Below are positions 1-14,244 of a stretch of DNA of 14,244 bases, piece by piece. The stretch lies in NCBI GenBank assembly GCA_038208905.1, contig JBBQYG010000098.1:1-14244 (forward strand), read 5' to 3'. Both the position numbers and the translations under genes were made by a program. The stretch's first letter is position 1, and the number at the start of each line of letters is the position of its first letter. The DNA is from Candidatus Sumerlaeia bacterium. GTDB taxonomy: Bacteria > Sumerlaeota > Sumerlaeia > SLMS01. The notes under the pieces were generated by a model, which was not told the DNA's origin, searched no databases, and saw only the letters and a program-made list of their open reading frames with translations.

Positions 1-57
1 GGTGAATCTTCGCGAGGAGACATTCAGGACCACGCCAAACAGGATGAACATCGTAAC
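1..57. repeat. Exact 57-bp direct repeat of 684..740 (3' end of rodA)
   Basis: ggtgaatcttcgcgaggagacattcaggaccacgccaaacaggatgaacatcgtaac occurs at 1..57 and 684..740; extends to 61/744 with one mismatch (ccagg vs ctagg). Confidence 0.97.
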
Positions 58-555: not shown

Positions 556-671
556 TCCTGTGATTTCCCCTCGCGTCGGATGTCGGGCCCAAGGCACCGG
601 CATGATGTGGCGCAAGTTAGGGGCCCAACCGGGGGTTGGCAACGGGTTTCCAGCCCCCAATCGCCGCTTCC

Positions 672-1829
672 CTATCGCGTGAAGGTGAATCTTCGCGAGG
701 AGACATTCAGGACCACGCCAAACAGGATGAACATCGTAACTAGGAACGATCCCCCATAGCTGAAGAACGGCAGCGGAATCCCCGTCACGGGGAGTAGCCC
801 CATGCTCATCCCGATGTTCTCCACCACGTGACCGCAGACCAGCGACGCCAGACCTGCCACCGCGATGCCGCCGAACCGATCCCGAGCGAAGTCAATCGCG
901 CGCACCATTCTGTACACGAGCAGGGCGAAAAGCAGCAGCGCGACCAACCCGCCGATTAGCCCAAACTGCTCCACCAGGCTCGCGAAGATGAAGTCGGTAT
1001 GGTGTTCAGGCAGGAAGCGGTGGTTTGCCTGACTCCCCGCCCCCCAGCCCTGACCAAAAATGCCGCCGTTCCCGATCGCCACCTTGGACTGGATCACGTT
1101 GTAGCCCGATCCCGCCGCGTCGGCGGATGGGTCAAGGAAGCTGGTAAGCCGCGCGCGCTGATAGGGCTTAAGGAACGGGAACGCGCAAGCCATCCCTGCG
1201 CATGCCGCGGCGAGCAACGTGCCGAGCTGGCTCCATGCCGCCCCCGCCACCAGCATCATCGCGAGGAAGAGCAGGAAGAAGAGCGACGCGGTTCCCAGAT
1301 CGGGCTGTGCCAGAATCAGCAGCGCCGGAATGCCACAGATCGCTCCCGGCACGATGATGCCGCGCCAGCTCTTGAGCGTCTCTGGATGCAGGGCGAGCCA
1401 TTGGGCGCATACGAGCACCGTGGCGATCTTCATCGTCTCGCTCGGCTGCCAGTTCACCGGGCCCAGCGCAATCCACGACTTTGCGCCCTTGATGCGCGAA
1501 CCCGAGACGAGCACGAAAAGGAGCGCCGCGATGTTGAACGCATAGATCGCCATCGCGCCACGGTTGAGCCAGCGATAGTCCACCAGCGTCGTCGCGACCA
1601 GTGCGGCAACGGCGATCCAGAAGAACGTTGCCTGCCGGTCCACCGCGCCGCTCAGCGCGGGGATCGCGCCCACCGCACCCTCCAGCACAAACAACCCGGC
1701 CCCGGCCATCAACACCACCAGCGCCAGGAGCGGATAATCGAGATGCCGAAGCACCGCGAACGACGAATCGCGTGCCGATGAGGCTGCGTCGCCGCGCTCT
1801 CGGGTGATGGGAAAACGTGCCACGCTCAC
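672..1829 (-). CDS. rodA: Rod shape-determining protein RodA (SEDS peptidoglycan glycosyltransferase)
   Basis: 385 aa polytopic membrane protein with SEDS motifs GAKSWI, QPSE, QPDLGT, YQRARL, GYNVIQSKVAIGNGG, FLPEHHTDFIFA, GLLPVTGIPLPFFSYGGS; downstream of mreC; GTGA overlap with upstream gene. Confidence 0.93.
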   Translation of the reverse strand: MSVARFPITRERGDAASSARDSSFAVLRHLDYPLLALVVLMAGAGLFVLEGAVGAIPALSGAVDRQATFFWIAVAALVATTLVDYRWLNRGAMAIYAFNIAALLFVLVSGSRIKGAKSWIALGPVNWQPSETMKIATVLVCAQWLALHPETLKSWRGIIVPGAICGIPALLILAQPDLGTASLFFLLFLAMMLVAGAAWSQLGTLLAAACAGMACAFPFLKPYQRARLTSFLDPSADAAGSGYNVIQSKVAIGNGGIFGQGWGAGSQANHRFLPEHHTDFIFASLVEQFGLIGGLVALLLFALLVYRMVRAIDFARDRFGGIAVAGLASLVCGHVVENIGMSMGLLPVTGIPLPFFSYGGSFLVTMFILFGVVLNVSSRRFTFTR

Positions 1830-2356
1830 GGGAGGCGACCCCCTCCGACGCCAAGGGCTATCGACGCCTCCCGGTCGCGAGACAACTCCTCAAGCACCGC
1901 CGAGGCCACCGCGACGATCACGAAAACGACTGCTGTGAGAAGTGCGGTCGGAACTCCCTCGATCAGTGCGGATTTGGGCCCGCGCACGAAGGCGGTCGCC
2001 ACGACATGAGCCAGCAAGTACAGCCCAGCAAACACCGCGTGCTCATGGGACCACATCCGGCGGCTCTCCGTCCGCGCCACCAAGTTCGCCACCAGCAGCC
2101 CGACCGCGCAAGGTACCAGCAGCCGCAGCAAAGGAAGATCGCTCAGCGTAGCCAAGACCAGACACGGTGCCAGTGTCAGCGCCGCCTGCCAACTTGTCGG
2201 TCCCGCGAAGCATCGGATCGCCAACGCCAGAGCCACCGCATCCAAAGGGAACCCGCGAAGCAACCCCGACAGCGCCGCCAGCGGCAGCGCGAGCAGCGCG
2301 CCCTCCGCCAATCCCGCCAGCACCGGACGGCGCTCCCTCAAGTGATGGTCGGCCAT
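1826..2356 (-). CDS. Hydrophobic membrane protein, probable divergent MreD
   Basis: 176 aa with several hydrophobic segments; overlaps the mreC stop (2356) and rodA start (1826-1829). Size and position fit MreD, but sequence motifs are weak. Confidence 0.55.
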   Translation of the reverse strand: MADHHLRERRPVLAGLAEGALLALPLAALSGLLRGFPLDAVALALAIRCFAGPTSWQAALTLAPCLVLATLSDLPLLRLLVPCAVGLLVANLVARTESRRMWSHEHAVFAGLYLLAHVVATAFVRGPKSALIEGVPTALLTAVVFVIVAVASAVLEELSRDREASIALGVGGGRLP

Positions 2357-3210
2357 CAGCGCTTCGGCTCGAAGGGAATGCGCGCGTGCGGCAGCACGAA
2401 CAGCGTGCGCAGGCTGCCGGGCTTCTCGGATAGACGCACGATCGCCACCGCCTCGCCCTGCTTGTTGGTCGCAATCTTTTCGATGACACCAAAGGGAACT
2501 CCGCCCGGCGCGATGGATCCCGCCATCCCCGACGACACCACGATGTCGCCCGGTTCCGCCCGCTGGGAGGTGCGCTCGAATCGCATCTCCACCAACTCCG
2601 GATCGCCGGTCCCGCTCAAGACGCCGATTTCGCCGCGGCCATCAACCTCGGCCCCCCACGCGGCGCGGCTGTCGGTTACCAATTCCACCAGCGCAGTTGT
2701 CGCAAACACTTCGTCCACCTCGCCCACGATGCCGTGGGCGCCCAGCACGATCATGCCGGGTGAAAGCCCCTGCTCGCGCCCCGCGTCGATCCACGCCACC
2801 TGGCGGCCGCGCGCCGGGGCCAGCGACAGAACCGGCACCGGCATCAGCTCGAAGGTCCCCGCCGGAATCGCCGTGGAGATTTCCTGTGTCAGGTAGGCAA
2901 GCGCCTCTGTGGCGCGGCGGGCGGGGTTTTCCACGTGCAGGCTCGCCACCTGCTCGCGCAGCGCCGCGTTCTCGGCCCGCAAGGCGTCCGCCGAGAATAC
3001 CCCCGTCCAGACCGATTCCATCCCCCGATGCGCCGCCGCACCCGCCCTAAGGAACGGCGACGCCACCAGCATCACACCGTTGGAAAAGAAATTTCCACCC
3101 GAGGCCCCCGGCCCCGCAATCACCTGAAACACGAGCCCAGCCAGCAGCATCCCCACCAGCGAGCGGATGAGGAGTTCGACACGGTTTTTGCGGCGTCCCA
3201 AGGTGGCCAT
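2356..3210 (-). CDS. mreC: Rod shape-determining protein MreC
   Basis: N-terminal TM helix, coiled coil LRAENAALREQVASL, IDAGREQGLSPGMIV, GIVGEV, GDIVVSSGMAG, GVPFGVI: MreC architecture; upstream of rodA. Confidence 0.9.
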   Translation of the reverse strand: MATLGRRKNRVELLIRSLVGMLLAGLVFQVIAGPGASGGNFFSNGVMLVASPFLRAGAAAHRGMESVWTGVFSADALRAENAALREQVASLHVENPARRATEALAYLTQEISTAIPAGTFELMPVPVLSLAPARGRQVAWIDAGREQGLSPGMIVLGAHGIVGEVDEVFATTALVELVTDSRAAWGAEVDGRGEIGVLSGTGDPELVEMRFERTSQRAEPGDIVVSSGMAGSIAPGGVPFGVIEKIATNKQGEAVAIVRLSEKPGSLRTLFVLPHARIPFEPKR

Positions 3211-3362
3211 CGGAGGAGCGGTGCGAAGAGCGGGATTTGCCTGTACAATCCTAGGCCCCCAAATGACCGCCGGGGGTGAGATACCACGTCAAGATAAAGT
3301 GGATTGACCAGCGCCCGCACCATGTGAAGTGCCGACGAAACACACGAAGCGAGGATCCGCCT

Positions 3363-3605
3363 ATGCTTCTCGACTATATCAAGGCCGCACTCCGGCGCGC
3401 TACTCTTGAAGAGGTCTCGGACACCGGCCGCTACTATGCAGGGATTCCCATCGTCCCCGGAGTCTGGGCGGAGGGTGACACTCCTGATGAGTGCCGAGCG
3501 GAATTGGCTGAGGTTCTGGAGGAATCAATTTTTCTCGCGATTAGACTCGGACACGCATTGCCTGAGATCGACGGTGCGCGGTTGCGCCTACCCGCGGCGG
3601 TGTAG
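3363..3605 (+). CDS. hicB: HicB-family type II antitoxin (short form, no evident DNA-binding domain)
   Basis: ATG at 3363 after GAGGA (ORF-track start 3276 is probably too long); 80 aa MLLDYIKAALRRA...YYAGIPIVPGVWAEGDTPDECRAELAEVLEE, matching the HicB partial RNase H fold pattern. Confidence 0.85.
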   Translation: MLLDYIKAALRRATLEEVSDTGRYYAGIPIVPGVWAEGDTPDECRAELAEVLEESIFLAIRLGHALPEIDGARLRLPAAV

Positions 3606-3827
3606 TTGCCCCCGTTTGGCTCAATCTCGCGCCGCGAGTTCATTCAGTCGCTCCGACGGTGTGGTTATGAAGGCCCATATTCGGGAGGCAAGCACCAGTC
3701 CATCGTTAGGGGAGGGCTTCGATCGCGGATTCCCAATCCCCACACAGGCGATCTTTCTAACGATCTGGTGTCGCGACTCCTTCGGCAGGCGGGGATCACC
3801 CGCGAACAGTGGGAGGAAGCGCGGTAG
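3606..3827 (+). CDS. hicA: HicA-family mRNA interferase toxin
   Basis: 73 aa, TTG start immediately after the hicB TAG; REFIQSLRRCGY, GGKH (GSH-like His motif), IPNPH, LLRQAGITREQW. Confidence 0.85.
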   Translation: MPPFGSISRREFIQSLRRCGYEGPYSGGKHQSIVRGGLRSRIPNPHTGDLSNDLVSRLLRQAGITREQWEEAR

Positions 3828-3904
3828 GGTCCCTGTGGACGAGGCCCCGGGCTCAAACCAGCAACCCTGCCGCTCTCGCCCGCGCAAAAAGCGAAACTTT
3901 TCCG

Positions 3905-3932
3905 TTGCATCTGATACCCGCCTGACTAGCTT
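3905..3932 (+). promoter_or_regulatory. Possible sigma70-type promoter for the Trm112-rpmE pair
   Basis: TTGCAT-N16-TAGCTT preceded by A/T tracts, 36 nt upstream of ATG 3969. Pattern match only. Confidence 0.3.
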
Positions 3933-3968
3933 CTCCCTCCCCGCCGAAGGGGATTCGTGGGCAATGGC

Positions 3969-4214
3969 ATGATCGACAAGAAATTACTGGAAATTCTCGC
4001 CTGCCCCCTCTCCAAGGCTCCCGTCCTTCTCGACGGCGAGCGTCTGGTGAGCACGGATCCCGAGACCCGGCGGGTTTACCGGATCGAGGACGATATCCCC
4101 GTGATGTTGATCGAGGAATCCGTCGAGCTTGGCCCAGAAGAACATTTGGAAATTCTCAAGCGGCACGGCGCAACGCCCTTTGCCGCAAAGACAAGAAGGA
4201 AGGCTGCGCGATGA
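3969..4214 (+). CDS. Trm112-family (YcaR/UPF0434-like) protein with basic C-terminal extension
   Basis: MIDKKLLEILACPLSKAPV...YRIEDDIPVMLIEES is the Trm112-like signature; ATG at 3969; ATGA overlap with rpmE. Confidence 0.85.
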   Translation: MIDKKLLEILACPLSKAPVLLDGERLVSTDPETRRVYRIEDDIPVMLIEESVELGPEEHLEILKRHGATPFAAKTRRKAAR

Positions 4215-4474
4215 AGAAAGACGTCCACCCCAAGTATGGCCACGTATTGTACCGGTGCCCCTCCACCGGCACCTCGTTCCTGATCCGCTCCACCAAGCTG
4301 GATGGTCCCAAGACCACCTATCAGGGCAAGGAAGTCCCCACCGTCACGATCGAAATCTGCAGCGACAATCACCCGTTCTACACCGGCAAGCAGGGCCTCG
4401 TCGATACGACGGGCCGCGTGGACGCCTTCAACAAGCGCTTCGCCCGCCTCAAGGCACCCGCCAAGACCATCTAG
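4211..4474 (+). CDS. rpmE: 50S ribosomal protein L31 (type-B-like length)
   Basis: MKKDVHPKY, FLIRST, HPFYTGKQ, VDTTGRVDAFNKRF; 87 aa. Confidence 0.95.
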   Translation: MKKDVHPKYGHVLYRCPSTGTSFLIRSTKLDGPKTTYQGKEVPTVTIEICSDNHPFYTGKQGLVDTTGRVDAFNKRFARLKAPAKTI

Positions 4475-4495
4475 GTCTCGGGCCGACCGACGTTT

Positions 4496-4531
4496 CGAGA
4501 CCCCCACGCCTTCGCGGCGCGGGGGTTCTCG
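4496..4531. terminator. GC-rich hairpin between convergent genes, possible terminator
   Basis: cgaga-ccccc-a-cgcc / ttcgc / ggcg-c-ggggg-t-tctcg inverted repeat between the rpmE stop (4474) and the convergent stop at 4542; no clear U-tract. Confidence 0.5.
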
Positions 4532-4541
4532 GCGTTAAGCC

Positions 4542-5786
4542 CTACCCGGAGAGTTCGGCAAGCGTCAGCGCCAGCACTTCCACGCCCCGGCGAATCTCCT
4601 CCGGCGACGAATACTCGTCGGGCCGGTGGCTGACTCCGTCACGGCACGGGATGAAGATCATCCCCGTGGGGCACACTCGAGCCATAAACAGGGAATCGTG
4701 ATAGGCGCGGCTGACCATGCGGCGGCTTGGGATTCCGAGCTGCGCGCTGGCCCTCGCCACTGCCTCCACGACAGCGGTGCCACAGGTGGCCGGCGGGTCG
4801 GCGTTAAGCATCTGAATGCCGACAGTGAGTCCCCTTCGCTCGGCGATGGCGCGTGCACCTGATAGGATCTCCTCCACGGCGGCGTCGCGAGGTTCCAACG
4901 CCGTGTCGCGCACATCGATCTCAATCGTGCAGCGGCTGGGGATGCTGTTGATGGCGCCGGGAAAGGGCTGCATCACGCCTACTGTGCCCACGGTGCTGGG
5001 GCTCCCCGTCGCGCGCGCGGCGCGATCCACCGCCAGCGCAAGCTCCGCCGCGCCAAGTAGAGCATCGCGCCGATCGGGCATCATCACCGTGCCCGCGTGG
5101 CCGCCTTGACCATGAAAGACCACACGCATCGAGGCTGGCGCAGCGATGGCCTCCACGATGCCGATGGCGAGGCCCTCCTTCTCCAGCAACGGTCCCTGCT
5201 CGATGTGGAGCTCCACGAAAGTCTCATAGTAGCCCGCCGGAAGCGCTACCGTCGCCAGATCGCCGCGAAAGCCGCACTCCGCGCGTGCCTCGTCCAGCGA
5301 CGTGCCCGAGCCATCGCGCAGCGCCGTCGCCGCGGCGGGGGAGAGCGTGCCGCTCAGCAGGCGGCTACCAAGGCAGCCGATGCCGTAACGCGTAGGTTCC
5401 TCGGCGGTGAACATCAGGAGTTCGATCGAGCGGCGCGGCTGATGCCCTGCGGCCCGGAGCGCGCGGATCGCCTCCAGCCCGCCAAAGACGCCGACGGTTC
5501 CATCGTACCGCCCGGAGTTGGGAATTGCATCGGTGTGGGAGCCGGTGCCGACGGCTGACGCTTGGGGATCGGAGCCAACCCACCGCCCGAAGATATTCCC
5601 CACGGCATCCTCGCGGATCAAAAGGCCCGTCTCGCGGCAGCATTGCTTGAAGAACTCCCGCGCGGCGCGATCCGTCGCGGTAAACAGGATTCGAGTCACC
5701 GACGGCGCGGGTGAGTCGGTGAACCCCGCAAGCTCCTCCAATTCGGCGCTCAAGCGGGCAATGTCCACCTTCACGGCGGCGGTCAT
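4542..5786 (-). CDS. M20-family amidohydrolase, plant-type ureidoglycolate amidohydrolase (UAH-like)
   Basis: GSHTDAIPNSGRYDGTVG, FTAEEPTRYGIGCLGSRLL, ELHIEQGP, GGHAG, SRAYHDSLFMAR, GMIFIPC..GVSHRPDEYSSPE. EEPTR, AYHDSLF and IFIPC are motifs I recall from Arabidopsis UAH; ATGA overlap with allE. Confidence 0.75.
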   Translation of the reverse strand: MTAAVKVDIARLSAELEELAGFTDSPAPSVTRILFTATDRAAREFFKQCCRETGLLIREDAVGNIFGRWVGSDPQASAVGTGSHTDAIPNSGRYDGTVGVFGGLEAIRALRAAGHQPRRSIELLMFTAEEPTRYGIGCLGSRLLSGTLSPAAATALRDGSGTSLDEARAECGFRGDLATVALPAGYYETFVELHIEQGPLLEKEGLAIGIVEAIAAPASMRVVFHGQGGHAGTVMMPDRRDALLGAAELALAVDRAARATGSPSTVGTVGVMQPFPGAINSIPSRCTIEIDVRDTALEPRDAAVEEILSGARAIAERRGLTVGIQMLNADPPATCGTAVVEAVARASAQLGIPSRRMVSRAYHDSLFMARVCPTGMIFIPCRDGVSHRPDEYSSPEEIRRGVEVLALTLAELSG

Positions 5787-6532
5787 GGCGCGATGCCAAG
5801 CGGGTCGCGGTGAATATCCTTATAGTAGAGGTACGAGCTTGGCCCCTTGCCATAGGCCACAAACCACTGTGGGCAGTAGGACGCCATCCAGATCGCATCG
5901 CCCGCCTGCACGGGATACCACGAATCTGCGAGGCGATAAACGCCCTGGCCCTCCAGCATCAGCAGCCCGTGCTCCATGACATGGCACTCCACGAAGGGAA
6001 GCGCTGCGCCGGCCTTGAAATCGAAGACGTTCATCGCCATGTCGAACCCCGGAATCTCCGGCAGTAGAACCTTCAGCCGCGCATCGGGATCGCCGAGGAA
6101 GGGATTGCCCTTCACCTTGGCGGAATCCCCCGCGACGGCGCCCGGAATCTCGACGCCTTCGCGCTCCTCGTAGGGCTTCTCGAACACCGTCAACCGCGTC
6201 GCCTTCGCCGCGCGAATCGTGTGGGGAACATCTGGCGGCAGCCATGCGAAGCCGCCGGGTGCCAGCGTCGCCTTGAGCTTTCCGCACTCCACGCGCACCC
6301 CGCCCTCGTGGACGAAGATCGCGCGCTGAACACCGGGCAACGGCAGCCCCGCGGTGCCACCCCGCGCCATGTTGGCAAAGTATTGGATGAACCGCGAGCC
6401 CATTTGCGGGGAGATCAGGATGATCGCACTGGTCTCAGTCCATCCCACCGGCGGACAGGGCACGTGGGAATCCGGCGCGATCATCGCGTGATCGCCTTTG
6501 ATGCAGGTGCGGGTGAGGGCGTTGAGGGCCAT
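5783..6532 (-). CDS. allE: (S)-ureidoglycine aminohydrolase (bicupin)
   Basis: 249 aa; FDMAMNVFDF, LPFVECHVMEHGLLMLEGQGVYRL, AGDAIWMASYCPQW, YLYYKD; RBS AAAGGAAG upstream. Confidence 0.9.
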   Translation of the reverse strand: MALNALTRTCIKGDHAMIAPDSHVPCPPVGWTETSAIILISPQMGSRFIQYFANMARGGTAGLPLPGVQRAIFVHEGGVRVECGKLKATLAPGGFAWLPPDVPHTIRAAKATRLTVFEKPYEEREGVEIPGAVAGDSAKVKGNPFLGDPDARLKVLLPEIPGFDMAMNVFDFKAGAALPFVECHVMEHGLLMLEGQGVYRLADSWYPVQAGDAIWMASYCPQWFVAYGKGPSSYLYYKDIHRDPLGIAP

Positions 6533-6556
6533 CGCGACTTCCTTTCGTGTATCTAT

Positions 6557-7825
6557 CTATACGGCGGAAATCAGCTTCTTCGGAAGGGAGGAGACAAATC
6601 TAGCCATCGCATCCAGCGCCGCGGCCACATCCTCCACCTTGACCGACTCGTCGGGGTGATGGCTGACACCGTCGCGGCACCTGAGGAAGAGCATCGCCGT
6701 CGGCAATATTCGCGAGATCACCATCGCATCATGACCGGCGCCGCTAAGAAGGTGCGACGGGCGGATCCCCGCCTCGGCCACGGCCTCCTGCATGATTCTC
6801 GTCAACTTCGGGTCGCAGCGCACCACGCTCTGCGTCGCGTTGGTCTTGAGCGTCACCGCCAAGCGTCGCGCTTCGCCGATCTGCCTTGCCACTTCCAGCA
6901 GGTGGTCCACGGCTGCTTGGCGCAACTGGTCGTCGGCATGGCGTATGTCCAGCCCCAGCATCGCCCGCCCCGGGATCACATTGGAAACATTGGGCCCGAT
7001 GTTCACCGTGCCCACTGTAGCGCGAAGGTCCGGGGTCGCGCGTGCGTGGGCCTCCACCGCCAGGATGAACTCCGCCGCCCCCGTCAGCGCGTCTCGTCGT
7101 TGATCCGGCGGAACCGTACCCGCGTGTGCCGCGCGTCCTTCGAAGAGCACCTGCGCCCGCGTCTGTCCCGCGATGCCCGTTACGATTCCGATCGGCAGGT
7201 TCAGCGACTCCAGCACGGGGCCCTGCTCTATGTGAGCCTCCAGATAGCCGAGCAGCCGCTCCGGCACCCAGGCCGCCTGGGCGATCCGGTCTGGATCGCC
7301 GCCGAAATCGCGAATCGCCTGATCCATCGAGACGCCATCCGCGTCGGTCAACTGCAGGAGACTCCTCTCGAAGCTTCCCGCCGCGGCCATGCTGCCGAGG
7401 AAGGGAGCGCCATAGCGCACCCCCTCCTCCTCGGAGAAGCCCGCCACAAGGAGGCCGAACGGCAGCTCCGCATCACGCAAAGCCTCCGCGACGGCGATGC
7501 CCAGGAGGACGCCCACGATTCCGTCGTACTTTCCCGCATGGGGAACCGTGTCGAGGTGGGACCCGATGACGAAGCTCGGCGCGCTGGTGGAGGTGCCGGC
7601 GCGATGGCCGAGGATGTTCCCAACGGCGTCTATGCGTGGCGACAGCCCCGCCGCAATCATCCATCCGCCCACATGCTCGTGGACCTCCCGCATCGGCGGC
7701 GTCAGGAAACGCCGTGTCAGGCGAAAGGTCTCCTCGCTGCAGGAACCTAGCACGTCACACCGCTCCATGACCCTGTGCGCCAGGGCCATGATGTCCGGCG
7801 CGGTGACTTGCTCAGGCTGCTCCAT
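6557..7825 (-). CDS. allC: Allantoate amidohydrolase (M20 family)
   Basis: [70 protein letters not shown]; directly upstream of allE. Start placed at ATG 7825, overlapping the upstream stop; exact start uncertain. Confidence 0.8.
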
Positions 7826-8990
7826 ACACCGCGTTTGCCGCATCCAGCGCCTTGCCGCGCGGGATTGATAGGCCTTCCGTGGCGAGGATCGACTCCAGCG
7901 CCGACAGGCACAGCGTCACGTGGCGTCGGCTGCTGGAATCCCCCATCAGCCCAATGCGCCATGCCTTGCCCTTCATCGGCCCAAGGCCGCCGCCGATTTC
8001 CAGGCCGTACTCGTTCAGCAGCCGCCCGCGCACCTTCGCGTCGTCGGCACCCTCGGGGATAGAGATGCAGTTCAGCGTCGTCAGGGAGTGCTCCGGTATA
8101 TACGAGATACCCATCGCCTCAAGACCCGCGCGCAGCGCCCGGTGGTTCAGCGCGTGACGCGCGAATCGCGTCTCAAGCCCTTCCTCCAGCGCGGCGGCCA
8201 GCGCCTCCCGCAGCGCATACGTCATATTAATCGGCGCCGTGTGGTGATAGGAGCGCGATGCGCCCCAGTAGTCCCGCACCATCGTCAGATCCAAGTACCA
8301 GCTCTGGACTTTCACCTTCCGATTGTCGATCGCCGCCTCGGCCCGCGGCGAAATCGTCACGGGCGACAGGCCGGGCGGACACGAAAGGCACTTCTGCGTT
8401 CCACTATACGCCGCATCAACTTCCCAGTCATCGACGCGCACGTCGATGCCGCTCAGCGATGTCACGGTGTCCAGAATCAGCAACGCCCCTGCGTCGTGGA
8501 CCAGCTTCGAAATCGCATCCACGGGCTGATGCGCTCCGGTGGAAGTCTCCGCGTGGACCAGGCCAACAGCCTTCGTCTTCGGGTGCGCCTTGAGCGCCTC
8601 CGCGATCTGGTCGGGCTGAATGATCTTTCCCCAATCCGCCTTCACCTCGTGGACCACCGCGCCATAACGCCCGGCCACGTCCACCATGCGCATGCCAAAG
8701 ACGCCGTTCACGCAGACAATCATCTCGTCGCCCGGCTCGATCAGGTTGGCGATACAGCATTCCATGCCCGCCATGCCCGTGCCCGGCACGGCCAGGGTCA
8801 GCGTGTTCTTCGTCCGATATATCTCGCGCGTCAGCTGGCGGACCTCGTCCATCATCTTGAGGTAGAGCGGATCAAGGTGACCGATCGTGGGGCAGGAGAG
8901 CGCGCGCAGCACGCGGTCGGAGACGTCGCTGGGCCCGGGCCCCATCAGAACGCGGCGGGGTGGGTTCAGCGGTGGGACGGATAGGCTCAT
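7812..8990 (-). CDS. Class V PLP aminotransferase, alanine/serine-glyoxylate aminotransferase family
   Basis: ATG 8990 preceded by [42 protein letters not shown] (PLP lysine), YHHTAP, WRIGLMG. Confidence 0.88.
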
Positions 8991-9213
8991 CGGTGGCTCC
9001 GGTATCGGACTTGCAGGATTCAGTTGCATCAAACACCAAGGCATTGCGCCCCGAGCCCTCCGCCGCAAGGCGAAAAGGGAATCATCCGATGGTGGACGCT
9101 CCATCACGGGCGCTTTCGGTTGACCCCGGGCACAATGCCACGAGTTCTCTTCTTGCCGTGGCTCTTAAATCAGCCTTACAGGCAACCGATTAATTGACCA
9201 GGAGCTGCCCCCG

Positions 9214-11097
9214 ATGACCACGACTCTCAATCCGAAATGGGCCGCTTTCAACCCGCCCGCCGACCTCGCCGCCATCCTGACCGCCGCCCCCAGCGTCCGC
9301 GTGGCGAGCACGGTCGAGGATTTGATCGATCTCGCATGTGGCGGTCCCGGCAGTTCGGAACTTCGCGTGGCCTATGACCTTCCGGATGGGACCTCCGTGC
9401 TGGAGGCCATTGCTGTCCGCGTTCGAAACGGTGTGGCGGCAAACTATATCGATCCCTATATGCGCCGTCGCGATCCCGATTGCATGGTGATCGGTGATGA
9501 GTCCCCGACGGACAAGAAGCGCTTCCGAGATAGGTTCGGATACGAGTTCGATATCCTCCGGGCAGAGACAATGAAGTGGCTTTCCACGCAGCCCCTCGCC
9601 ATTTTCGCATTTAAAGCGGGCCGAGGGTACGGCTACTCCTCGATCGCTGTCCTGCCAGACAATGCCGGGTTCTTTGCGCTGGGGTTGGCGCTGCTTCAGG
9701 GGATTGTTCCCGTGGACAGCCTCGCGCCCGATTTCAAGCCTCAGGCCGTCATGTACACCGCGCCTCCCTTTCGCCACACGCACTTCAAGGGGAAGCAGGT
9801 GGTGGTCCATCACCGCGGCGCCGACCTGCACGAAATGTTTGCCTACAACCTCTATCCCGGCCCCAGCGCCAAGAAGGGCGTTTATGGGATGCTACTCGCC
9901 CAGGGCGAGCGCGAATCGTGGATTACAGCCCACTGTTCCACGGTCAAGATCGTGACTCCCTATGACAACGAACTTGTCCTGATGCACGAAGGCGCCTCGG
10001 GTGGCGGTAAGTCCGAGATGCTACAGCACCCCCATCGCCTCAGCGATGGACGACTCTTGCTGGGCAGGAATGTGCTTACCGGCGAACGGCGCTACGTTGA
10101 ACTGCCACGCACCTGCGATCTATTCCCCGTAACCGACGACATGGCGCTCTGCCACCCATCGTTCCAGAATGATGGTGGCCGCCTGTCGCTTGCCGACGCA
10201 GAGGACGGCTGGTTCGTTCGTGTGGACCATATTCGCGAGTACGGCACCGATCCCCATTTGGAAAAGATTACTGCCAAGCCCACCACGCCGCTCCTTTTCC
10301 TCAATATCGACGCGGTTCCCAACGGACGCGCGATGATTTGGGAGCACATCGAGGATTCCCCCGGCAAGCCCTGTCCCAATCCGCGCGTAATCATCCCGCG
10401 CACCGCCGTCCCTAGCGTGGTCGACGGTTCGGTGGAGGTACAGGTCAGAAGCCTTGGAGTGCGCACGCCGCCGTGTACCAATGAATTGCCTTCGTATGGC
10501 ATCATCGGGATCATGCATCTGCTTCCCCCGGCTCTTGCCTGGCTGTGGCGACTCGTCGCGCCCCGGGGCCACGCAAACCCAAGCATCGTCAGCACCGAAG
10601 GCATGAGCAGCGAGGGCGTTGGTTCATACTGGCCCTTTGCGACAGGCCGCCGCGTCGATCAGGCGAATCTTCTGCTGGAGCAGTTCGTCGCCACCCCGCG
10701 CGTTCGCTATATCCTCACCCCAAATCAGCACATTGGCGCATGGGAGACGGGATTCATGCCTCAATGGCTGGCCCGCGAGTACATCGCGCGGCGCGGCGGC
10801 GTAAAATTCAAGGACGAAGTCCTTCGCCCGTCTCGCTGCCCCCTGCTTGGGAGCGCCCTGCACACGATGACGATCGAGGGGCGCCTGATTCCGCGCTGGT
10901 TCCTTCAGGTGGAGACGCAGCCGGAAGTCGGCGAAGAAGCCTATGACAAGGGTGCCCTCCAGCTTCAGGAATTCTTTGATAAGTGCCTCGCCAAGTTCGA
11001 CCATCCAGAGATGCTCCCACTTGGGCGACGCATCATCCAGTGCTGCCTCGACAGAGGCGGTGAAGCGGATTACGCCTCCTTGATCAAACAGGAGTAG
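9214..11097 (+). CDS. Uncharacterised PEP-carboxykinase-fold P-loop protein (DUF4914-like)
   Basis: 627 aa; RBS AGGAG at 9200-9204; ordered motifs YPGPSAKKG, HCS, GASGGGKSE, TDD, NPR. DUF4914 assignment is from recall of family size and motifs. Confidence 0.75.
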   Translation: MTTTLNPKWAAFNPPADLAAILTAAPSVRVASTVEDLIDLACGGPGSSELRVAYDLPDGTSVLEAIAVRVRNGVAANYIDPYMRRRDPDCMVIGDESPTDKKRFRDRFGYEFDILRAETMKWLSTQPLAIFAFKAGRGYGYSSIAVLPDNAGFFALGLALLQGIVPVDSLAPDFKPQAVMYTAPPFRHTHFKGKQVVVHHRGADLHEMFAYNLYPGPSAKKGVYGMLLAQGERESWITAHCSTVKIVTPYDNELVLMHEGASGGGKSEMLQHPHRLSDGRLLLGRNVLTGERRYVELPRTCDLFPVTDDMALCHPSFQNDGGRLSLADAEDGWFVRVDHIREYGTDPHLEKITAKPTTPLLFLNIDAVPNGRAMIWEHIEDSPGKPCPNPRVIIPRTAVPSVVDGSVEVQVRSLGVRTPPCTNELPSYGIIGIMHLLPPALAWLWRLVAPRGHANPSIVSTEGMSSEGVGSYWPFATGRRVDQANLLLEQFVATPRVRYILTPNQHIGAWETGFMPQWLAREYIARRGGVKFKDEVLRPSRCPLLGSALHTMTIEGRLIPRWFLQVETQPEVGEEAYDKGALQLQEFFDKCLAKFDHPEMLPLGRRIIQCCLDRGGEADYASLIKQE

Positions 11098-11208
11098 GCT
11101 GACGGTCCGGGCGCCAGAAATCCGATTGGACCGCGATTCTTCGTTGACGGTGAATCGGGTTCCCCGCGTGATGTTCCGTTCAGGACATTCCCGCGAGGCT
11201 CGCCCCGG

Positions 11209-13332
11209 ATGACTTCAGCCGCACCTCCCTATCGCTATGTCGGCCACTCCGTTCTTCGGCGGGAGGGGGCCGACAAGGTGACTGGCCGCGCCATATATAT
11301 CGATGATCGCGCGACGCCGGGATGTCTCCACGCAAAGACGCTCCGCAGCACCATCCCCGCCGGGCGCATCCGCGCTATCCACTTTCCGCCTCACATTCCG
11401 TGGCACGAGTTCACCATCGCCGACGCCCGCGACCTGGCCGAGAACGTGGTCGCGCTGATTCTTGACGATCAGCCCGTGTTCTGTGACGGCATCGTGCGAC
11501 ACCTCCATGAGCCAATCCTCGTCCTCGCCCATCCCGACCACGGGAAGGCCGAGGAGGCAGTCCGCGCGATTCGCGTGGATTACGACGAGGAGCCCGGCGT
11601 TTTCGACATCGGCCCCGGTCCCGTGATGAAGTCCTATCGCATCGACCACGGCGAAATTGACGCCGCATTCGCAGAAAGCGACGTCGTGCTGGAGGGCACC
11701 TACCAGACCGGCGCCCAAGAACACGTTTATATCGAGCCCAACGGGTTCATCGCCGAGTGGAAGAACGGGGTCGCCACGCTGCGCGGCTCGCTCCAGTGTC
11801 CCTACTACGTACACAAAGCTGTGATGCGCGCGCTTGGCCTTCCCGCCGAAAAGGTGAACGTCATCCAGGAAACGACCGGCGGGGGCTTTGGCGGCAAGGA
11901 GGACTTCCCCAGCGTCCTTGGCATTCACGCGGCGCTGCTGGCGCGGAAGTCGGGAAAGACCATCCGGCTGATGTATAACCGCAACGAGGACATGGCGAGT
12001 TCCACCAAGCGGCATCCCTCGCGCAGCCTCATCCGCACCGGCTGCAGCCGCGACGGGAAGCTGCTGGCTCTCGACTTCGAGTTCCTGATCGACGGCGGCG
12101 CCTACTCCACGCTCTCCGCCGTGGTGCTCTCGCGCGGGATTCTTCACGGCTCCGGTCCTTACAGGTGGAAGGCCGCGCGCCTCGTGGGGCACTGCCACTT
12201 CACCAACTCGCCGCCCTATGGCGCGTTCCGCGGATTTGGCGCACCCCAGAGCCAGTTCGCCATCGAGCTCCACCTCTCTCGCCTTGCCGACCAACTCGGC
12301 ATCGACCCGGCTGAACTGCGGCGGCGCAACTTCCTGCACCGGGGCGACGTGCTCCCCACGGGCCAGATCCTCGCAGAGGATCCGAATCTGGAGGCCATGC
12401 TGGATCGCGCGCTCGACATCTCCGACTACCATGAGAAGCGGAAGAAGCCGCGTGGCGGAGGCTCAGGCGTTGGCGTGTCCGCCACGCTTCACGGCACCGG
12501 ATTCACGGGGAATGGCGAGGTGTATCTCGCCTCCAAGGTCGCCGTCGAGGCCCGCGCCGATGGCAAGGCGACGATCCTTGTCGCCTCCACGGAGATCGGC
12601 CAGGGGACAGAGACGATCTTCTCCCAAATGGTGGCCGAAGCGCTCGGCATCCCCATCGGGGACGTCGTCTTTCACAGGCCCGAAACGGATCGCGTCCCCA
12701 ACAGCGGGCCCACAGTCGCATCGCGCACGTGCTCCGTGGTGGGGCGGCTGGTGCAGCGCGCGGCGGAGCAGCTCCGCGACCGGCTCTCTGGGGCGTCCAT
12801 CGCGGACCACGTGCGCAGGCACGGCGTCGCCCGCGAGGAGGCTGTCTATACACCGCCACCGGGGCTCGTGTGGAACGAGGACAGCTATCGCGGCAGTGCC
12901 TATGGTGCCTATTCTTGGGCGATCATGGTGGCCGAAACCACTGTCGATCCCGTGACGCGGGCGCCCAAGGTCGAGGCCATCTGGAACACAACCGACGTCG
13001 GCACGATCATAAATCCCGTACTCGCCATCGGCCAGATGGAGGGCGGCATCGCCCAGGCCGTGGGATGGGCCACGTGCGAGCAAGTCGTTCTTCGCAAGGG
13101 CGCCATGGCCAACGGGCAGATGACCAACTACATTATTCCGACTTCCGCCGATGCGCCAAGCATCGTTGTGGAGTTCATAGAGAATCCCTACGCCGAGGGC
13201 GCCTACGGCTCCAAGGGCGTCGGCGAGCTCCCCATGGACGGACCCGCCTCCGCCATTGTGGCGGCGATCAACCACGCCGCCGACGCAGGCCTCGCCCACA
13301 TCCCCGCCACGCCGGAGGACCTTCTTTCGTGA
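11209..13332 (+). CDS. Xanthine dehydrogenase family, molybdopterin-binding subunit
   Basis: KVTGRAIY, QEHVYIEP, GGGFGGKE, AFRGFGAPQ, EIGQG, SGPTVASR, GQMEGG, SKGVGE (catalytic Glu). Confidence 0.93.
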   Translation: MTSAAPPYRYVGHSVLRREGADKVTGRAIYIDDRATPGCLHAKTLRSTIPAGRIRAIHFPPHIPWHEFTIADARDLAENVVALILDDQPVFCDGIVRHLHEPILVLAHPDHGKAEEAVRAIRVDYDEEPGVFDIGPGPVMKSYRIDHGEIDAAFAESDVVLEGTYQTGAQEHVYIEPNGFIAEWKNGVATLRGSLQCPYYVHKAVMRALGLPAEKVNVIQETTGGGFGGKEDFPSVLGIHAALLARKSGKTIRLMYNRNEDMASSTKRHPSRSLIRTGCSRDGKLLALDFEFLIDGGAYSTLSAVVLSRGILHGSGPYRWKAARLVGHCHFTNSPPYGAFRGFGAPQSQFAIELHLSRLADQLGIDPAELRRRNFLHRGDVLPTGQILAEDPNLEAMLDRALDISDYHEKRKKPRGGGSGVGVSATLHGTGFTGNGEVYLASKVAVEARADGKATILVASTEIGQGTETIFSQMVAEALGIPIGDVVFHRPETDRVPNSGPTVASRTCSVVGRLVQRAAEQLRDRLSGASIADHVRRHGVAREEAVYTPPPGLVWNEDSYRGSAYGAYSWAIMVAETTVDPVTRAPKVEAIWNTTDVGTIINPVLAIGQMEGGIAQAVGWATCEQVVLRKGAMANGQMTNYIIPTSADAPSIVVEFIENPYAEGAYGSKGVGELPMDGPASAIVAAINHAADAGLAHIPATPEDLLS

Positions 13333-13802
13333 TTCACACGCCGATTCAGTTTTCGCTCAACGGAGAGAAGCGCTCCGTTGCCGCACACCCGATGGAGCCG
13401 CTTCTCGATGTGCTCCGCCGCGAGTGCGGCGCCACCGGAACCAAGTACGGTTGCGGAGAAGGCGAGTGCGGCGCGTGCAGCGTGATCATCAACGGCGAGC
13501 TTGCCATGAGCTGCATGATCCCCGCGTGCCAGGCCGCCGACGCCACCATCGAGACCATCGAGGGCCTTGCGCGCGACGGCGAACTTCACCCCGTGCAGCA
13601 GGCGTTTCTGGAAACCGGCGGCGCCCAATGCGGCATCTGCACCCCCGGCATGGTGCTCGCCGCGGTTCAGTACATACGCCACCCGGAACGCTCGCCCGGC
13701 GGCGCGGCCGAGGCACTGGAGGGGAACCTCTGCCGCTGCACTGGATATTCCGCGATCTTCCGCGCCGTGGAACTGGCGCGCTCCCGCATGGAGTCCGCAT
13801 GA
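13329..13802 (+). CDS. Xanthine dehydrogenase family, 2Fe-2S subunit
   Basis: GTG start overlapping the upstream TGA; 157 aa; GTKYGCGEGECGACSV, SC, QCGICTPG, GNLCRCTGY. Confidence 0.93.
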   Translation: MIHTPIQFSLNGEKRSVAAHPMEPLLDVLRRECGATGTKYGCGEGECGACSVIINGELAMSCMIPACQAADATIETIEGLARDGELHPVQQAFLETGGAQCGICTPGMVLAAVQYIRHPERSPGGAAEALEGNLCRCTGYSAIFRAVELARSRMESA

Positions 13803-14244
13803 TCGCCAGCGACCTTTCCGCTTTCGAGTGCGTCGTTCCCGCCACCGTGGAGGAGGCGCTGCGCCAGCGCGCGGAAACTCCCGGCCTTTCGCCCATCGCC
13901 GGCGGCACCGAGGTGATGGTCCTCCTCAACGAGGCCAAGCTCCAGGGCCGCAAGTTCCAGAGCCTCCACCGCCTCGCCGCCGAGTGGCGCTACGTCCGCC
14001 CCGCGCTGGATGGTGGACTCCTCGTCGGCGCTCTCGCGACCTACACCGACCTTCGCCACGTCGATCACGTGTCGAAGCACCATCCGCTCCTCGTCGAGGC
14101 CGCCCGCGCCACGGGCGCTCTCCAGATCCAGAACCGCGCGACGATAGCGGGAAACATCGTCAACGGATCCCCCGCGGCGGACACGGTCCCGGCGCTCATG
14201 GTGTACGACGCCCGCCTCCGCCTCGTCCGCAGCGGGGGAGAACG
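13799..14244 (+). CDS. Xanthine dehydrogenase family, FAD-binding subunit (partial, truncated by window end)
   Basis: Hand-translated from the ATGA overlap at 13799: MIASDLSAFECVVPATVEEAL...IAGGTEVMV...VGALATY...IQNRATIAGNIVNGSPAAD; open to the end of the window. Confidence 0.92.
   Translation, partial: MIASDLSAFECVVPATVEEALRQRAETPGLSPIAGGTEVMVLLNEAKLQGRKFQSLHRLAAEWRYVRPALDGGLLVGALATYTDLRHVDHVSKHHPLLVEAARATGALQIQNRATIAGNIVNGSPAADTVPALMVYDARLRLVRSGGE

What the first reader, a model, noticed from the sequence alone, without database searches (positions are those of the whole stretch)
9214..11097. Uncharacterised PEPCK-fold enzyme with an apparently intact active site, embedded in a purine-catabolism locus
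Seen: the 627-aa protein carries, in order, RRRDP, YPGPSAKKG (9853-9879), HCS (9931-9939), GASGGGKSE (9991 onward), TDD (DD at 10135-10140) and NPR (10378-10386). It lies between the divergent ureide operon and co-oriented xanthine dehydrogenase genes. Established: ATP-dependent PEP carboxykinase (E. coli PckA) has the same series: Arg65, Y207xGxxKK213, His232-C-S, GLSGTGKT, D268-D269 and Arg333. Inference: this is a Mn/Mg- and NTP-dependent enzyme, too divergent elsewhere to be an ordinary PckA/PckG. It could be a new PEPCK class, or a kinase/decarboxylase acting on a small carboxylate linked to purine carbon (glyoxylate, oxalurate or a downstream C3/C4 acid). No PEPCK-fold step is known to me in purine degradation. 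The location may also be incidental.
Basis: partly seen in the sequence, partly recalled or inferred. Interest (0 to 1): 0.7.

Follow-up and report, generated by a model that had tools for sequence, protein, structure and literature searches.

The report
Uncharacterised PEP-carboxykinase-like enzyme (DUF4914)
This gene encodes a member of a large, highly conserved but unstudied bacterial protein family that has the shape and catalytic residues of PEP carboxykinase, and its position beside purine-breakdown genes looks accidental.

Summary
ORF 9214-11097 (+) encodes 627 aa, and every motif sits at the stated coordinates. The protein is a full-length member of Pfam DUF4914 (E 7.5e-301). It matches no PEPCK HMM, NCBIfam model or PDB sequence.

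An AlphaFold model (pLDDT 93.2) matches E. coli PckA over both domains (Foldseek E 4e-24, TM 0.65/0.75, 13-14% identity). It also matches GTP- and PPi-PEPCKs. Profile alignment maps PckA R65, Y207, K212/K213, H232, S250, K254, T255, D268/D269 and R333 onto R86, Y214, K220/K221, H240, S262, K266, S267, D308/D309 and R391. All are invariant or at least 90% conserved in the family.

The purine link is not conserved. 0 of 80 homologous loci carry ureide genes, and 2 of 80 carry a weak XDH-like hit. Instead, 18 of 80 loci carry genes of the PEP/pyruvate/oxaloacetate node or of inorganic-carbon handling: pckA, PycB/OadA, PPDK, beta-carbonic anhydrase, an SbtA-like bicarbonate transporter, PurE/PurK.

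Best reading: a fourth PEPCK-type (de)carboxylating phosphotransferase whose phosphoryl donor is unknown. No paper mentions the family.

The parts
9214..11097 (+). DUF4914 gene, 627 aa. It has a PEPCK-like two-domain fold.
   Evidence: Pfam PF16260, 999 bits, E 7.5e-301, profile positions 3-612 of 612. AF2 pLDDT 93.2, pTM 0.91. Foldseek versus PckA E 4e-24.
9463..9477 (+). RRRDP motif. R86 aligns with PckA R65; R84 and R86 are invariant in the family.
   Evidence: This N-terminal part of the alignment comes from the greedy hhalign run and is less certain.
9853..9879 (+). YPGPSAKKG motif. Y214, G216, K220 and K221 align with PckA Y207, G209, K212 and K213.
   Evidence: BLASTP, hhalign. All four are invariant.
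9931..9939 (+). HCS motif. H240 aligns with PckA H232.
   Evidence: H240 and S242 are at least 90% conserved; C241 varies.
9991..10017 (+). P-loop GASGGGKSE. S262, K266 and S267 align with PckA S250, K254 and T255.
   Evidence: S262, G263, K266 and E268 are invariant.
10132..10140 (+). TDD motif. D308 and D309 align with PckA D268 and D269. The motif follows an insertion of about 28 residues that PckA lacks.
   Evidence: Both aspartates are invariant.
10378..10386 (+). NPR motif. N389 and R391 align with PckA N331 and R333.
   Evidence: Both are invariant.
4542..9107 (-). Context only: divergent ureide operon. It holds an M20 amidohydrolase (4542-5786), a ureidoglycine aminohydrolase (5783-6532), an allantoate amidohydrolase (6557-7843) and a class-V aminotransferase (7812-9107).
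   Evidence: None of these four proteins has a hit in any of the 80 homologous loci.
11209..14244 (+). Context only: genes for a three-subunit xanthine-dehydrogenase-family enzyme. Mo subunit 11209-13332, 2Fe-2S subunit about 13329-13802, FAD subunit from about 13799 and running off the window.
   Evidence: The Mo subunit scores below every NCBIfam cut-off, so its substrate is not assigned.

Best explanation
The gene encodes a soluble enzyme of the PEP-carboxykinase superfamily. It belongs to a separate, very conserved lineage, Pfam DUF4914.

Shown: it has the two-domain PEPCK fold. It keeps counterparts of the PckA residues R65, Y207, K212/K213, H232, S250, K254, T255, D268/D269 and R333.

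Recalled, not from a call: in PckA these residues bind oxaloacetate/PEP and CO2, hold the catalytic Mn2+ and the nucleotide Mg2+, and carry out phosphoryl transfer.

Inferred: it catalyses a metal-dependent phosphoryl transfer coupled to carboxylation or decarboxylation at the PEP/oxaloacetate node. That means oxaloacetate + XTP <-> PEP + CO2 + XDP, or a very close variant. This would make it a fourth PEPCK type. The phosphoryl donor is undetermined, because the P-loop is kept but the PckA adenine-pocket residues are not.

Inferred from gene neighbourhoods in other phyla: the enzyme works with CO2/bicarbonate supply and with PEP/pyruvate/oxaloacetate enzymes. It may run in the carboxylating (anaplerotic) direction in some hosts.

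Its place between ureide and xanthine-dehydrogenase genes in this window is most likely incidental. At most it reflects a gluconeogenic need during growth on purine-derived glyoxylate.
For: Fold: AF2 model pLDDT 93.2, pTM 0.91. All Foldseek PDB hits listed (50 ranks) are PEPCKs. E. coli PckA 1ayl/1aq2 give E about 4e-24, TM 0.63-0.65 (query) and 0.73-0.75 (target) over about 640 columns. GTP-PEPCK 2qzy/4wou and PPi-PEPCK 6k31/8e1u also match.

Sequence:
- BLASTP versus E. coli PckA gives E 0.009 and aligns the Y..KK, HCS and P-loop motifs.
- hhalign of the family versus PckA gives 94.5% probability, E 8e-8.
- hhalign versus a 5-sequence PckA alignment gives 95.9%, E 5e-9, 496 columns.
- The mapped residues are invariant, or at least 90% conserved, in 32 sequences that go down to 28% identity.
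- PDB titles show that R65, Y207, G209, K212, K213, S250, K254 and D269 are residues studied by mutagenesis in PckA.
- ESM Atlas: the nearest named cluster that is not DUF4914 is PEPCK (ATP), score 0.91.

Context in 80 homologous loci:
- canonical pckA directly downstream in 4 of 80 (Bacteroidota, three named Flavobacteriaceae; above the TIGR00224 cut-off), flanked by a DASS/CitMHS anion transporter and an ATP-PFK
- PycB/OadA-type carboxyltransferase in 6 of 80
- PPDK in 1, double adenylate kinase in 2, PFOR in 2, OAD beta in 1
- beta-carbonic anhydrase in 5, Sbt_1 bicarbonate transporter in 3, PurE in 8, PurK in 2
- 18 of 80 loci have at least one of these
- 32 of the 34 gene hits are on the same strand as DUF4914
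- this context label needs 10 changes on the family tree

Published background (passages of review PMC8100219): PEPCK uses CO2 rather than bicarbonate and needs both Mg and Mn. Organisms with PPi-PEPCK mostly also keep a canonical PEPCK.

Conservation: 62-68% identity to the window protein in loci from at least 14 phyla, and more than 8000 homologues. This fits a core metabolic enzyme.
Against: No activity was measured, and no paper on the family was found.

62 of 80 loci show none of the listed neighbours, including 0 of 15 Chloroflexota loci. Among the 56 loci with at least 4.5 kb downstream flank, only 13 have them.

The neighbour families were picked after seeing the data. Many positive loci are related to each other: Verrucomicrobiota 10 of 25, and four near-identical Bacteroidota/Flavobacteriaceae loci. 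No background control was possible.

Sitting next to a canonical pckA argues that the two enzymes are not redundant. The substrate, donor or direction may therefore differ from PckA.

The family has extra invariant residues without PckA counterparts (E64, R84, R187, E268, E330, R521), and a roughly 28-residue insertion after the P-loop. These could shape a different substrate site.

I could not superpose coordinates. The claim that the residues converge on one site rests on the alignments and on the global fold match, not on measured distances.

PckA adenine-site residues R449, I450, I452 and T455 align to W518, L519, R521 and I524 (a low-confidence region).
Confidence: 0.5

Rival explanations
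1. The protein is a PEPCK-fold kinase/decarboxylase that acts on a small carboxylate from purine breakdown (glyoxylate, oxalurate or a downstream C3/C4 acid). It would be functionally part of the ureide/xanthine-dehydrogenase locus.
For: In this window the gene sits 106 nt from a divergent ureide operon and 111 nt upstream of co-oriented XDH-family genes. No terminator-like site was found in the 11097-11209 spacer.

One homologous locus (L006, Anaerolineae) has an XDH-family Mo-subunit gene directly upstream.

PurE, PurK and PurC (purine biosynthesis, not catabolism) lie downstream in 8, 2 and 1 of 80 loci.
Against: The window's four ureide-operon proteins and its FAD subunit have no hit (tblastn E<=1e-5) in 0 of 80 loci. 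The Mo subunit has only 2 of 80 weak hits, at 28% and 21% identity.

The family is 62-68% identical across phyla whatever the context, which argues for one function everywhere.

The residues kept are exactly those that align to the PckA residues studied by mutagenesis.

The closest relatives (75-83% identity) lie on contigs I could not fetch. A clade-specific link therefore stays unchecked.
Confidence: 0.08
2. The protein is a PEPCK-superfamily enzyme at the same metabolic node but with different chemistry from PEPCK. Candidates are a dedicated oxaloacetate decarboxylase, a pyruvate/enolpyruvate kinase, or a carboxykinase for another 2-oxo/enol acid. That would explain why it coexists with pckA.
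For: It lies directly upstream of a canonical pckA in 4 of 80 loci.

It has extra invariant Arg and Glu residues and family-specific motifs with no PckA counterpart, and an insertion after the P-loop.

PEPCKs are known to have oxaloacetate-decarboxylase side activity (review PMC8100219, passages).
Against: The P-loop lysine and the counterparts of both metal sites are invariant, so phosphoryl transfer is probably retained.

PPi-PEPCK also coexists with canonical PEPCKs, so coexistence alone is not informative.
Confidence: 0.25
3. The protein is a regulatory protein kinase/phosphorylase, like HprK/P. HprK/P shares the PEPCK P-loop domain; this is recalled, not from a call. Under this idea it may act together with the kinase-like protein that follows it in some phyla.
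For: The P-loop is conserved. A 297-aa protein follows the gene in 14 of 80 loci, often 3-15 nt away. That protein gives only weak matches to protein-kinase folds, and it has invariant K101, D258-H-K260 and D287-Y-E289.
Against: The match to PEPCK covers both domains. It includes the N-terminal domain and the residues aligning to PckA R65, Y207 and R333, which a protein kinase would not need.

No HprK/P structure appears among the 50 listed Foldseek ranks.

The window has no homologue of the 297-aa partner.
Confidence: 0.05

Closest known systems
ATP-dependent PEP carboxykinase (PckA, EC 4.1.1.49; Pfam PEPCK_ATP PF01293, TIGR00224)
   Same: It has the two-domain fold over the full length: TM 0.65 (query) and 0.75 (target), Foldseek E about 4e-24. 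Aligned and conserved counterparts exist for R65, Y207, G209, K212/K213, H232, S250, K254, T255, D268/D269, K288 (here Arg), N331 and R333.
   Different: Identity is 13-14%. There is no PF01293 or TIGR00224 hit. The protein is 627 aa against 540 aa. It has an insertion of about 28 residues between the P-loop and the DD motif. The adenine-pocket residues are not conserved in the alignment. The family has its own invariant motifs. It coexists with, and sits next to, a true pckA in four Bacteroidota loci, three named Flavobacteriaceae.
GTP-dependent PEP carboxykinase (EC 4.1.1.32)
   Same: The fold matches chicken mitochondrial PEPCK 2qzy (E 2.6e-22) and M. tuberculosis PEPCK 4wou (E 5.5e-21), with query TM 0.60-0.64.
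   Different: Identity is 12-14%. No Pfam PEPCK_GTP hit at E<=1. Guanine-specific residues were not examined.
PPi-dependent PEP carboxykinase / PEP carboxytransphosphorylase (EC 4.1.1.38; PDB 6k31, 8e1u)
   Same: The structural core matches: query TM 0.66-0.70, E about 3e-21 to 9e-21. It is a precedent for an additional PEPCK class that coexists with canonical PEPCKs (review PMC8100219, passages).
   Different: Those enzymes are about 1100 aa, so target TM is only 0.39-0.41. Identity is 11-12%. There is no sequence-level hit to any PDB chain.
Pfam DUF4914 (PF16260)
   Same: The window protein is a full-length, high-scoring member. The 120 hits listed all carry PF16260, and where a source names them it is only as 'DUF4914 family protein' or 'hypothetical protein'.
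   Different: Nothing differs. This is the family it belongs to. The family has no assigned function and no paper in the searched library.

Membership tests
Pfam DUF4914 (PF16260) | Score above the Pfam gathering cut-off (25.7 bits) over the whole domain | tested here: met
   999.1 bits, E 7.5e-301, residues 16-624 on profile positions 3-612 of 612
ATP-PEPCK (PckA) | Match to the PEPCK_ATP Pfam model or the pckA NCBIfam equivalog | tested here: not met
   No PF01293 hit at E<=1. No NCBIfam hit at E<=1. No PDB sequence hit at E<=10.
ATP-PEPCK (PckA) | Two-domain PEPCK fold | tested here: met
   Foldseek E about 4e-24, TM 0.65/0.75 to 1aq2, about 640 aligned columns, from a model with pLDDT 93.2
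ATP-PEPCK (PckA) | Catalytic set: substrate Arg (R65, R333), Tyr207, Mn ligands (K213, H232, D269), P-loop Lys and Ser/Thr (K254, T255), S250. The roles are recalled; the positions were checked. | tested here: met
   These residues map to R86, R391, Y214, K221, H240, D309, K266, S267 and S262. All are invariant or at least 90% conserved.
ATP-PEPCK (PckA) | Adenine-binding residues near the C-terminus (R449, I450, I452, T455; recalled) | tested here: inconclusive
   They align to W518, L519, R521 and I524 in a low-confidence part of the greedy hhalign alignment.
ATP-PEPCK (PckA) | OAA + ATP <-> PEP + ADP + CO2 activity | not testable with these tools
   This needs an enzyme assay.
GTP-PEPCK | Match to the PEPCK_GTP Pfam models | tested here: not met
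   No hit at E<=1. Fold similarity only.
PPi-PEPCK | A protein of about 1100 aa with sequence similarity to the Entamoeba/Propionibacterium enzymes | tested here: not met
   627 aa. No PDB sequence hit, although 6k31 and 8e1u are in the library. Core fold similarity only, with target TM 0.39-0.41.
Purine-catabolism (ureide/XDH) gene set | Conserved co-location of homologues with ureide or xdh genes | tested here: not met
   The four ureide-operon proteins and the FAD subunit hit 0 of 80 loci. The XDH Mo subunit hit 2 of 80, weakly.

The most novel reading that the evidence does not exclude
DUF4914 is a fourth, widespread class of PEP carboxykinase. It is found in Verrucomicrobiota, Planctomycetota, Chloroflexota, Bacteroidota, Sumerlaeota and other phyla. 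It has its own phosphoryl-donor preference. In several lineages it is wired to bicarbonate uptake (SbtA-like transporter) and carbonic anhydrase as a CO2-fixing, anaplerotic PEP-carboxylating module. That would make it a previously unrecognised enzyme of the central PEP-pyruvate-oxaloacetate node.
Probability: 0.35. Interest if true: 0.75.

Novelty: new variant of a known kind. Interest (0 to 1): 0.6.

Why it matters
The PEP-pyruvate-oxaloacetate node is central to carbon metabolism. Only three PEPCK classes (ATP, GTP, PPi) are recognised in the 2020 review read here (passages).

A fourth, very conserved lineage exists. It has more than 8000 homologues, and I found no paper on it. It is common in phyla that dominate soils, sediments and guts. 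Metabolic reconstructions of those organisms may therefore mis-assign gluconeogenic or anaplerotic flux.

The family is easy to test: it is a soluble single-gene enzyme with standard coupled assays. The recurring neighbours (carbonic anhydrase, bicarbonate transporter, PPDK, PycB/OadA, pckA) give concrete hypotheses.

For this window, the practical message is that the gene should not be annotated as a purine-catabolism step.

Tried and rejected
- NCBIfam scan of the protein: 0 families.
- PDB sequence search at E<=10: 0 hits.
- Papers: 'DUF4914' 0; 'PF16260' 0; 'PEPCK-like' + 'uncharacterized' 2 irrelevant (listing only); 'phosphoenolpyruvate carboxykinase/Arg65/Tyr207' nothing relevant (listing only). 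Supplementary files were not searched, so fitness or omics tables that list DUF4914 genes could exist unseen.
- Fused forms: the search among proteins of 1099-3135 aa found none, which is weak evidence. An 831-aa representative (P0124) has a roughly 200-aa N-terminal extension with no Pfam domain. P0147 joins a C-terminal fragment to an MFS transporter and is probably a gene-call artefact.
- Rfam on the whole window: no match.
- Promoter/terminator scan of 8900-11400: 0 promoter-like sites and 5 terminator-like sites, none in the 11097-11209 spacer. This does not decide co-transcription.
- Plasmid collection, tblastn: no match.
- First neighbour clustering: the top clusters were spurious ORFs overlapping the DUF4914 gene itself, so I re-clustered without them.
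- Greedy longest-ORF gene calls gave false long ORFs in GC-rich loci. I replaced them with a codon-usage score trained on each locus's DUF4914 gene. On the window this still missed mreD and mis-called the FAD subunit, so the neighbour tables are approximate.
- Idea that DUF4914 replaces PurK next to PurE: dropped, because PurK itself is present in L018 and L070.
- I did not run complex prediction, because no binding claim is made.
Full report
**1. Observation**

The ORF at 9214-11097 (+) is real and intact. It has an ATG start, encodes 627 aa, and has an AGGAG about 10 nt upstream. A 100% identical protein exists in the public protein collection (P0002).

- RRRDP, nt 9463-9477
- YPGPSAKKG, nt 9853-9879
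- HCS, nt 9931-9939
- GASGGGKSE, nt 9991-10017
- TDD, nt 10132-10140
- NPR, nt 10378-10386

I checked the E. coli PckA numbering on the K-12 pck product fetched from NC_000913. It is correct.

**2. Family**

The protein is a full-length member of Pfam DUF4914 (PF16260, 999 bits, E 7.5e-301). It matches none of the following:
- any PEPCK Pfam model at E<=1
- any NCBIfam model
- any PDB chain by sequence at E<=10

A word-indexed search found at least 8000 homologues. The 120 listed are 64-100% identical to the window protein and come from Sumerlaeia, Chloroflexota, Verrucomicrobiota, Gammaproteobacteria and Acidobacteriota. They are named only 'DUF4914 family protein' or 'hypothetical protein'.

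An exhaustive HMMER search of 50%-identity cluster representatives returned 669 hits at E<=0.001. Most are fragments. Only a handful of full-length divergent representatives exist, at 29-41% identity. The family is therefore unusually tight.

No paper in the searched library contains 'DUF4914' or 'PF16260'.

**3. Fold**

I built a 32-sequence alignment (A1) and used it for AlphaFold2. The model has mean pLDDT 93.2 and pTM 0.91.

In the Foldseek search against the PDB, all 50 listed ranks are PEP carboxykinases:
- E. coli PckA 1ayl/1aq2: E about 4e-24, TM 0.63-0.65 by query length and 0.73-0.75 by target length, about 640 alignment columns, 13-14% identity
- GTP-PEPCKs 2qzy and 4wou
- PPi-PEPCKs 6k31 and 8e1u

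The match spans both PEPCK domains, not only the P-loop domain.

**4. Active site**

Three alignments agree:
- BLASTP of the window protein against E. coli PckA aligns the Y..KK, HCS and P-loop motifs (E 0.009 for the single comparison).
- hhalign of A1 against PckA gives 94.5% probability, E 8e-8, over 321 columns.
- A greedier local run against a 5-sequence PckA alignment (E. coli plus four Bacteroidota PckA from the fetched loci) gives 95.9%, E 5e-9, over 496 columns spanning both proteins.

The resulting residue map is:

| E. coli PckA | Window protein |
|---|---|
| R65 | R86 |
| Y207 | Y214 |
| G209 | G216 |
| K212 / K213 | K220 / K221 |
| H232 | H240 |
| S250 | S262 |
| K254 | K266 |
| T255 | S267 |
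| D268 / D269 | D308 / D309 |
| K288 | R336 |
| N331 / R333 | N389 / R391 |

In A1 these positions are invariant, or at least 90% conserved in the case of H240, S267 and R336. C241 varies.

The PDB titles returned show that R65, Y207, G209, K212, K213, S250, K254 and D269 are the residues mutated in mechanistic studies of PckA. The specific roles (substrate and CO2 binding, Mn2+ ligands, P-loop) I state from recall.

Three caveats apply:
- The N-terminal R65/R86 pairing comes only from the greedy alignment.
- PckA's adenine-pocket residues (recalled: R449, I450, I452, T455) align to non-identical residues in a weak region. The phosphoryl donor is therefore open.
- I could not access the model coordinates, so convergence of the residues on one pocket was not measured directly.

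Features specific to the family:
- an insertion of about 28 residues between the P-loop and the DD motif
- additional invariant residues E64, R84, R187, E268, E330 and R521

**5. The purine link**

In the window the gene lies between a divergent ureide operon and co-oriented xanthine-dehydrogenase-family genes.
- The ureide operon holds a class-V aminotransferase, an allantoate amidohydrolase (NF006775, above cut-off), a ureidoglycine aminohydrolase (TIGR03214, above cut-off) and a second M20 amidohydrolase.
- The XDH-family genes encode Mo, 2Fe-2S and FAD subunits.

I fetched 80 homologous loci with up to 10 kb of flank from species-representative genomes. None is more than 68% identical to the window protein.

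tblastn of the window's neighbours against those loci, at E<=1e-5, gave:
- both M20 amidohydrolases, the ureidoglycine aminohydrolase, the aminotransferase and the FAD subunit: 0 of 80 each
- Mo subunit: 2 of 80, namely L006 (28% identity, directly upstream of the DUF4914 gene) and L011 (21% identity, 1.6 kb downstream)

Flanks are incomplete. 50 of 81 loci (window included) have at least 5 kb upstream and 54 of 81 have at least 5 kb downstream.

The purine-catabolism link is therefore not a property of the family.

**6. What the neighbours do say**

Most neighbourhoods are heterogeneous, as expected for a stand-alone housekeeping gene. Two themes recur.

(a) In four Bacteroidota loci (three of them named Flavobacteriaceae), the order is Usp, DASS/CitMHS anion transporter, DUF4914, canonical pckA (TIGR00224, 701 bits against a 590 cut-off), then ATP-PFK. 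All are co-oriented.

(b) In Verrucomicrobiota, some Planctomycetota and an Omnitrophota locus, DUF4914 is followed or preceded on the same strand by:
- a PycB/OadA-type carboxyltransferase (6 of 80; 5 of the 6 on the same strand)
- PurE (8), PurK (2), PurC (1)
- beta-carbonic anhydrase (5)
- an Sbt_1-family bicarbonate transporter (3)
- pyruvate phosphate dikinase (1, L066)
- a double adenylate kinase (2)
- PFOR (2)
- near L057, OAD alpha and beta
- divergent AraC/PocR regulators (17) or LysR regulators (4) upstream

Counts for this context:
- 18 of 80 loci carry at least one of the carbon-node, inorganic-carbon or PurE/K genes; 62 of 80 carry none.
- Among the 56 loci with at least 4.5 kb downstream, 13 do.
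- By phylum: Verrucomicrobiota 10 of 25, Bacteroidota 4 of 6, Planctomycetota 2 of 15, Chloroflexota 0 of 15.
- On a FastTree of the 81 proteins the context label needs 10 changes.

My estimate, not a tool result: the total flank of 1.08 Mb is roughly 1000 genes. From ten mostly single-copy families one would expect about four chance hits, against the 34 seen. However, the families were chosen after seeing the data and the loci are related, so I treat this as suggestive only.

The theme is chemically coherent. PEPCK uses CO2 rather than bicarbonate and needs Mg2+ and Mn2+ (review PMC8100219, passages read). A bicarbonate transporter plus a carbonic anhydrase would supply CO2. PPDK plus adenylate kinase would supply PEP and ADP.

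Adjacency to a true pckA shows that the two proteins are not simple replacements for each other. The same review notes, however, that organisms with PPi-PEPCK mostly keep a canonical PEPCK as well.

**7. Best explanation and rivals**

Most likely (about 0.5): a metal-dependent phosphotransferase/(de)carboxylase of PEPCK type acting at the PEP/oxaloacetate node. This would be a fourth PEPCK lineage with an undetermined donor. In some hosts it may run in the carboxylating direction.

Rivals:
- the same node but different chemistry or substrate (0.25)
- a purine-linked carboxylate kinase (0.08)
- an HprK/P-like regulatory kinase (0.05)

The remainder is unassigned.

For this window, the gene is best annotated as 'DUF4914 family PEP-carboxykinase-like protein', not as a purine-catabolism enzyme.

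**8. Novelty**

The gene is an ordinary member of a catalogued family, so the sequence itself is not new. What is not in print, as far as can show, is that the family is a complete PEPCK-type enzyme with conserved catalytic residues and carbon-node/CO2 neighbours.

I rate it a new variant of a known kind, interest 0.6. Domain databases may already flag the fold automatically. I could not check that.

**9. Side finding**

A 297-aa protein with no Pfam or NCBIfam match follows DUF4914 in 14 of 80 loci, often 3-15 nt away.
- It has about 275 homologues, all 'hypothetical'.
- Its AF2 model has pLDDT 87.7.
- Foldseek gives only weak matches, all to protein kinases or WaaP (E about 1e-3, TM 0.3-0.35).
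- K101, D258-H-K260 and D287-Y-E289 are invariant.
- The window has no copy.

Noticed in passing
window 13329-13802 (+): A 157-aa 2Fe-2S small subunit lies between the Mo subunit (ends 13332) and the FAD subunit (starts about 13799). It carries CGEGECGAC and CGICTPG motifs and overlaps both neighbours by 4 nt. The XDH-family enzyme is therefore a complete L-S-M set. The default ORF list hides this gene inside a longer GTG-started ORF (12729-13802).
   Followed up: partly
L066:2283-3176 and 13 other loci (L038, L050, L054, L056, L060, L061, L062, L064, L065, L069, L074, L075, L076): An unannotated family of about 297 aa sits immediately downstream of DUF4914. It has no Pfam or NCBIfam hit. Its AF2 model has pLDDT 87.7. 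It gives only weak Foldseek matches, all to protein kinases or WaaP, and it has invariant Lys and DHK/DYE motifs. It may be a divergent kinase-like partner or regulator.
   Followed up: partly
L007, L014, L021, L025 (Bacteroidota; three named Flavobacteriaceae), about 7.2-15 kb in each locus: A co-oriented cluster: Usp, DASS/CitMHS anion transporter with a TrkA_C domain, DUF4914, canonical pckA, then a 433-438 aa ATP-dependent phosphofructokinase (NF005301, above cut-off).
   Followed up: partly
L018, L059, L064 (Sbt_1); L050, L066, L074, L075, L076 (beta-CA); L066:3221-6019 (PPDK): In PVC-group bacteria, bicarbonate-transporter, carbonic-anhydrase, PurE/PurK and PPDK genes are strung on the same strand as DUF4914. 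This looks like an inorganic-carbon-related operon, with a divergent AraC/PocR or LysR regulator upstream.
   Followed up: partly
window 4542-5786 and 6557-7843 (-): The ureide operon holds two paralogous M20 amidohydrolases. The upstream one passes the allantoate amidohydrolase cut-off (NF006775, 534 against 479 bits). The downstream one falls just below its best model (391 against 399 bits) and may be a ureidoglycolate amidohydrolase. The aminotransferase ORF (7812-9107) overlaps the amidohydrolase ORF by 32 nt.
   Followed up: no
window 1-3605: Cell-shape genes lie on the minus strand: rodA (672-1829), a probable mreD (1826-2356, no family hit) and mreC (2356-3210). A UPF0150/HicB-like ORF lies on the plus strand at 3276-3605. 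ORFs at 3406-3972 (+) and 4076-4507 (-) have no family hit.
   Followed up: no
P0124 (831 aa): A DUF4914 representative with an N-terminal extension of about 215 residues that has no Pfam domain. It may be a mis-called start or a novel added domain.
   Followed up: no
L006:190-1990: In one Anaerolineae contig, an XDH-family Mo-subunit gene lies directly upstream of DUF4914. It is the only one of the 80 loci that echoes the window's arrangement.
   Followed up: partly
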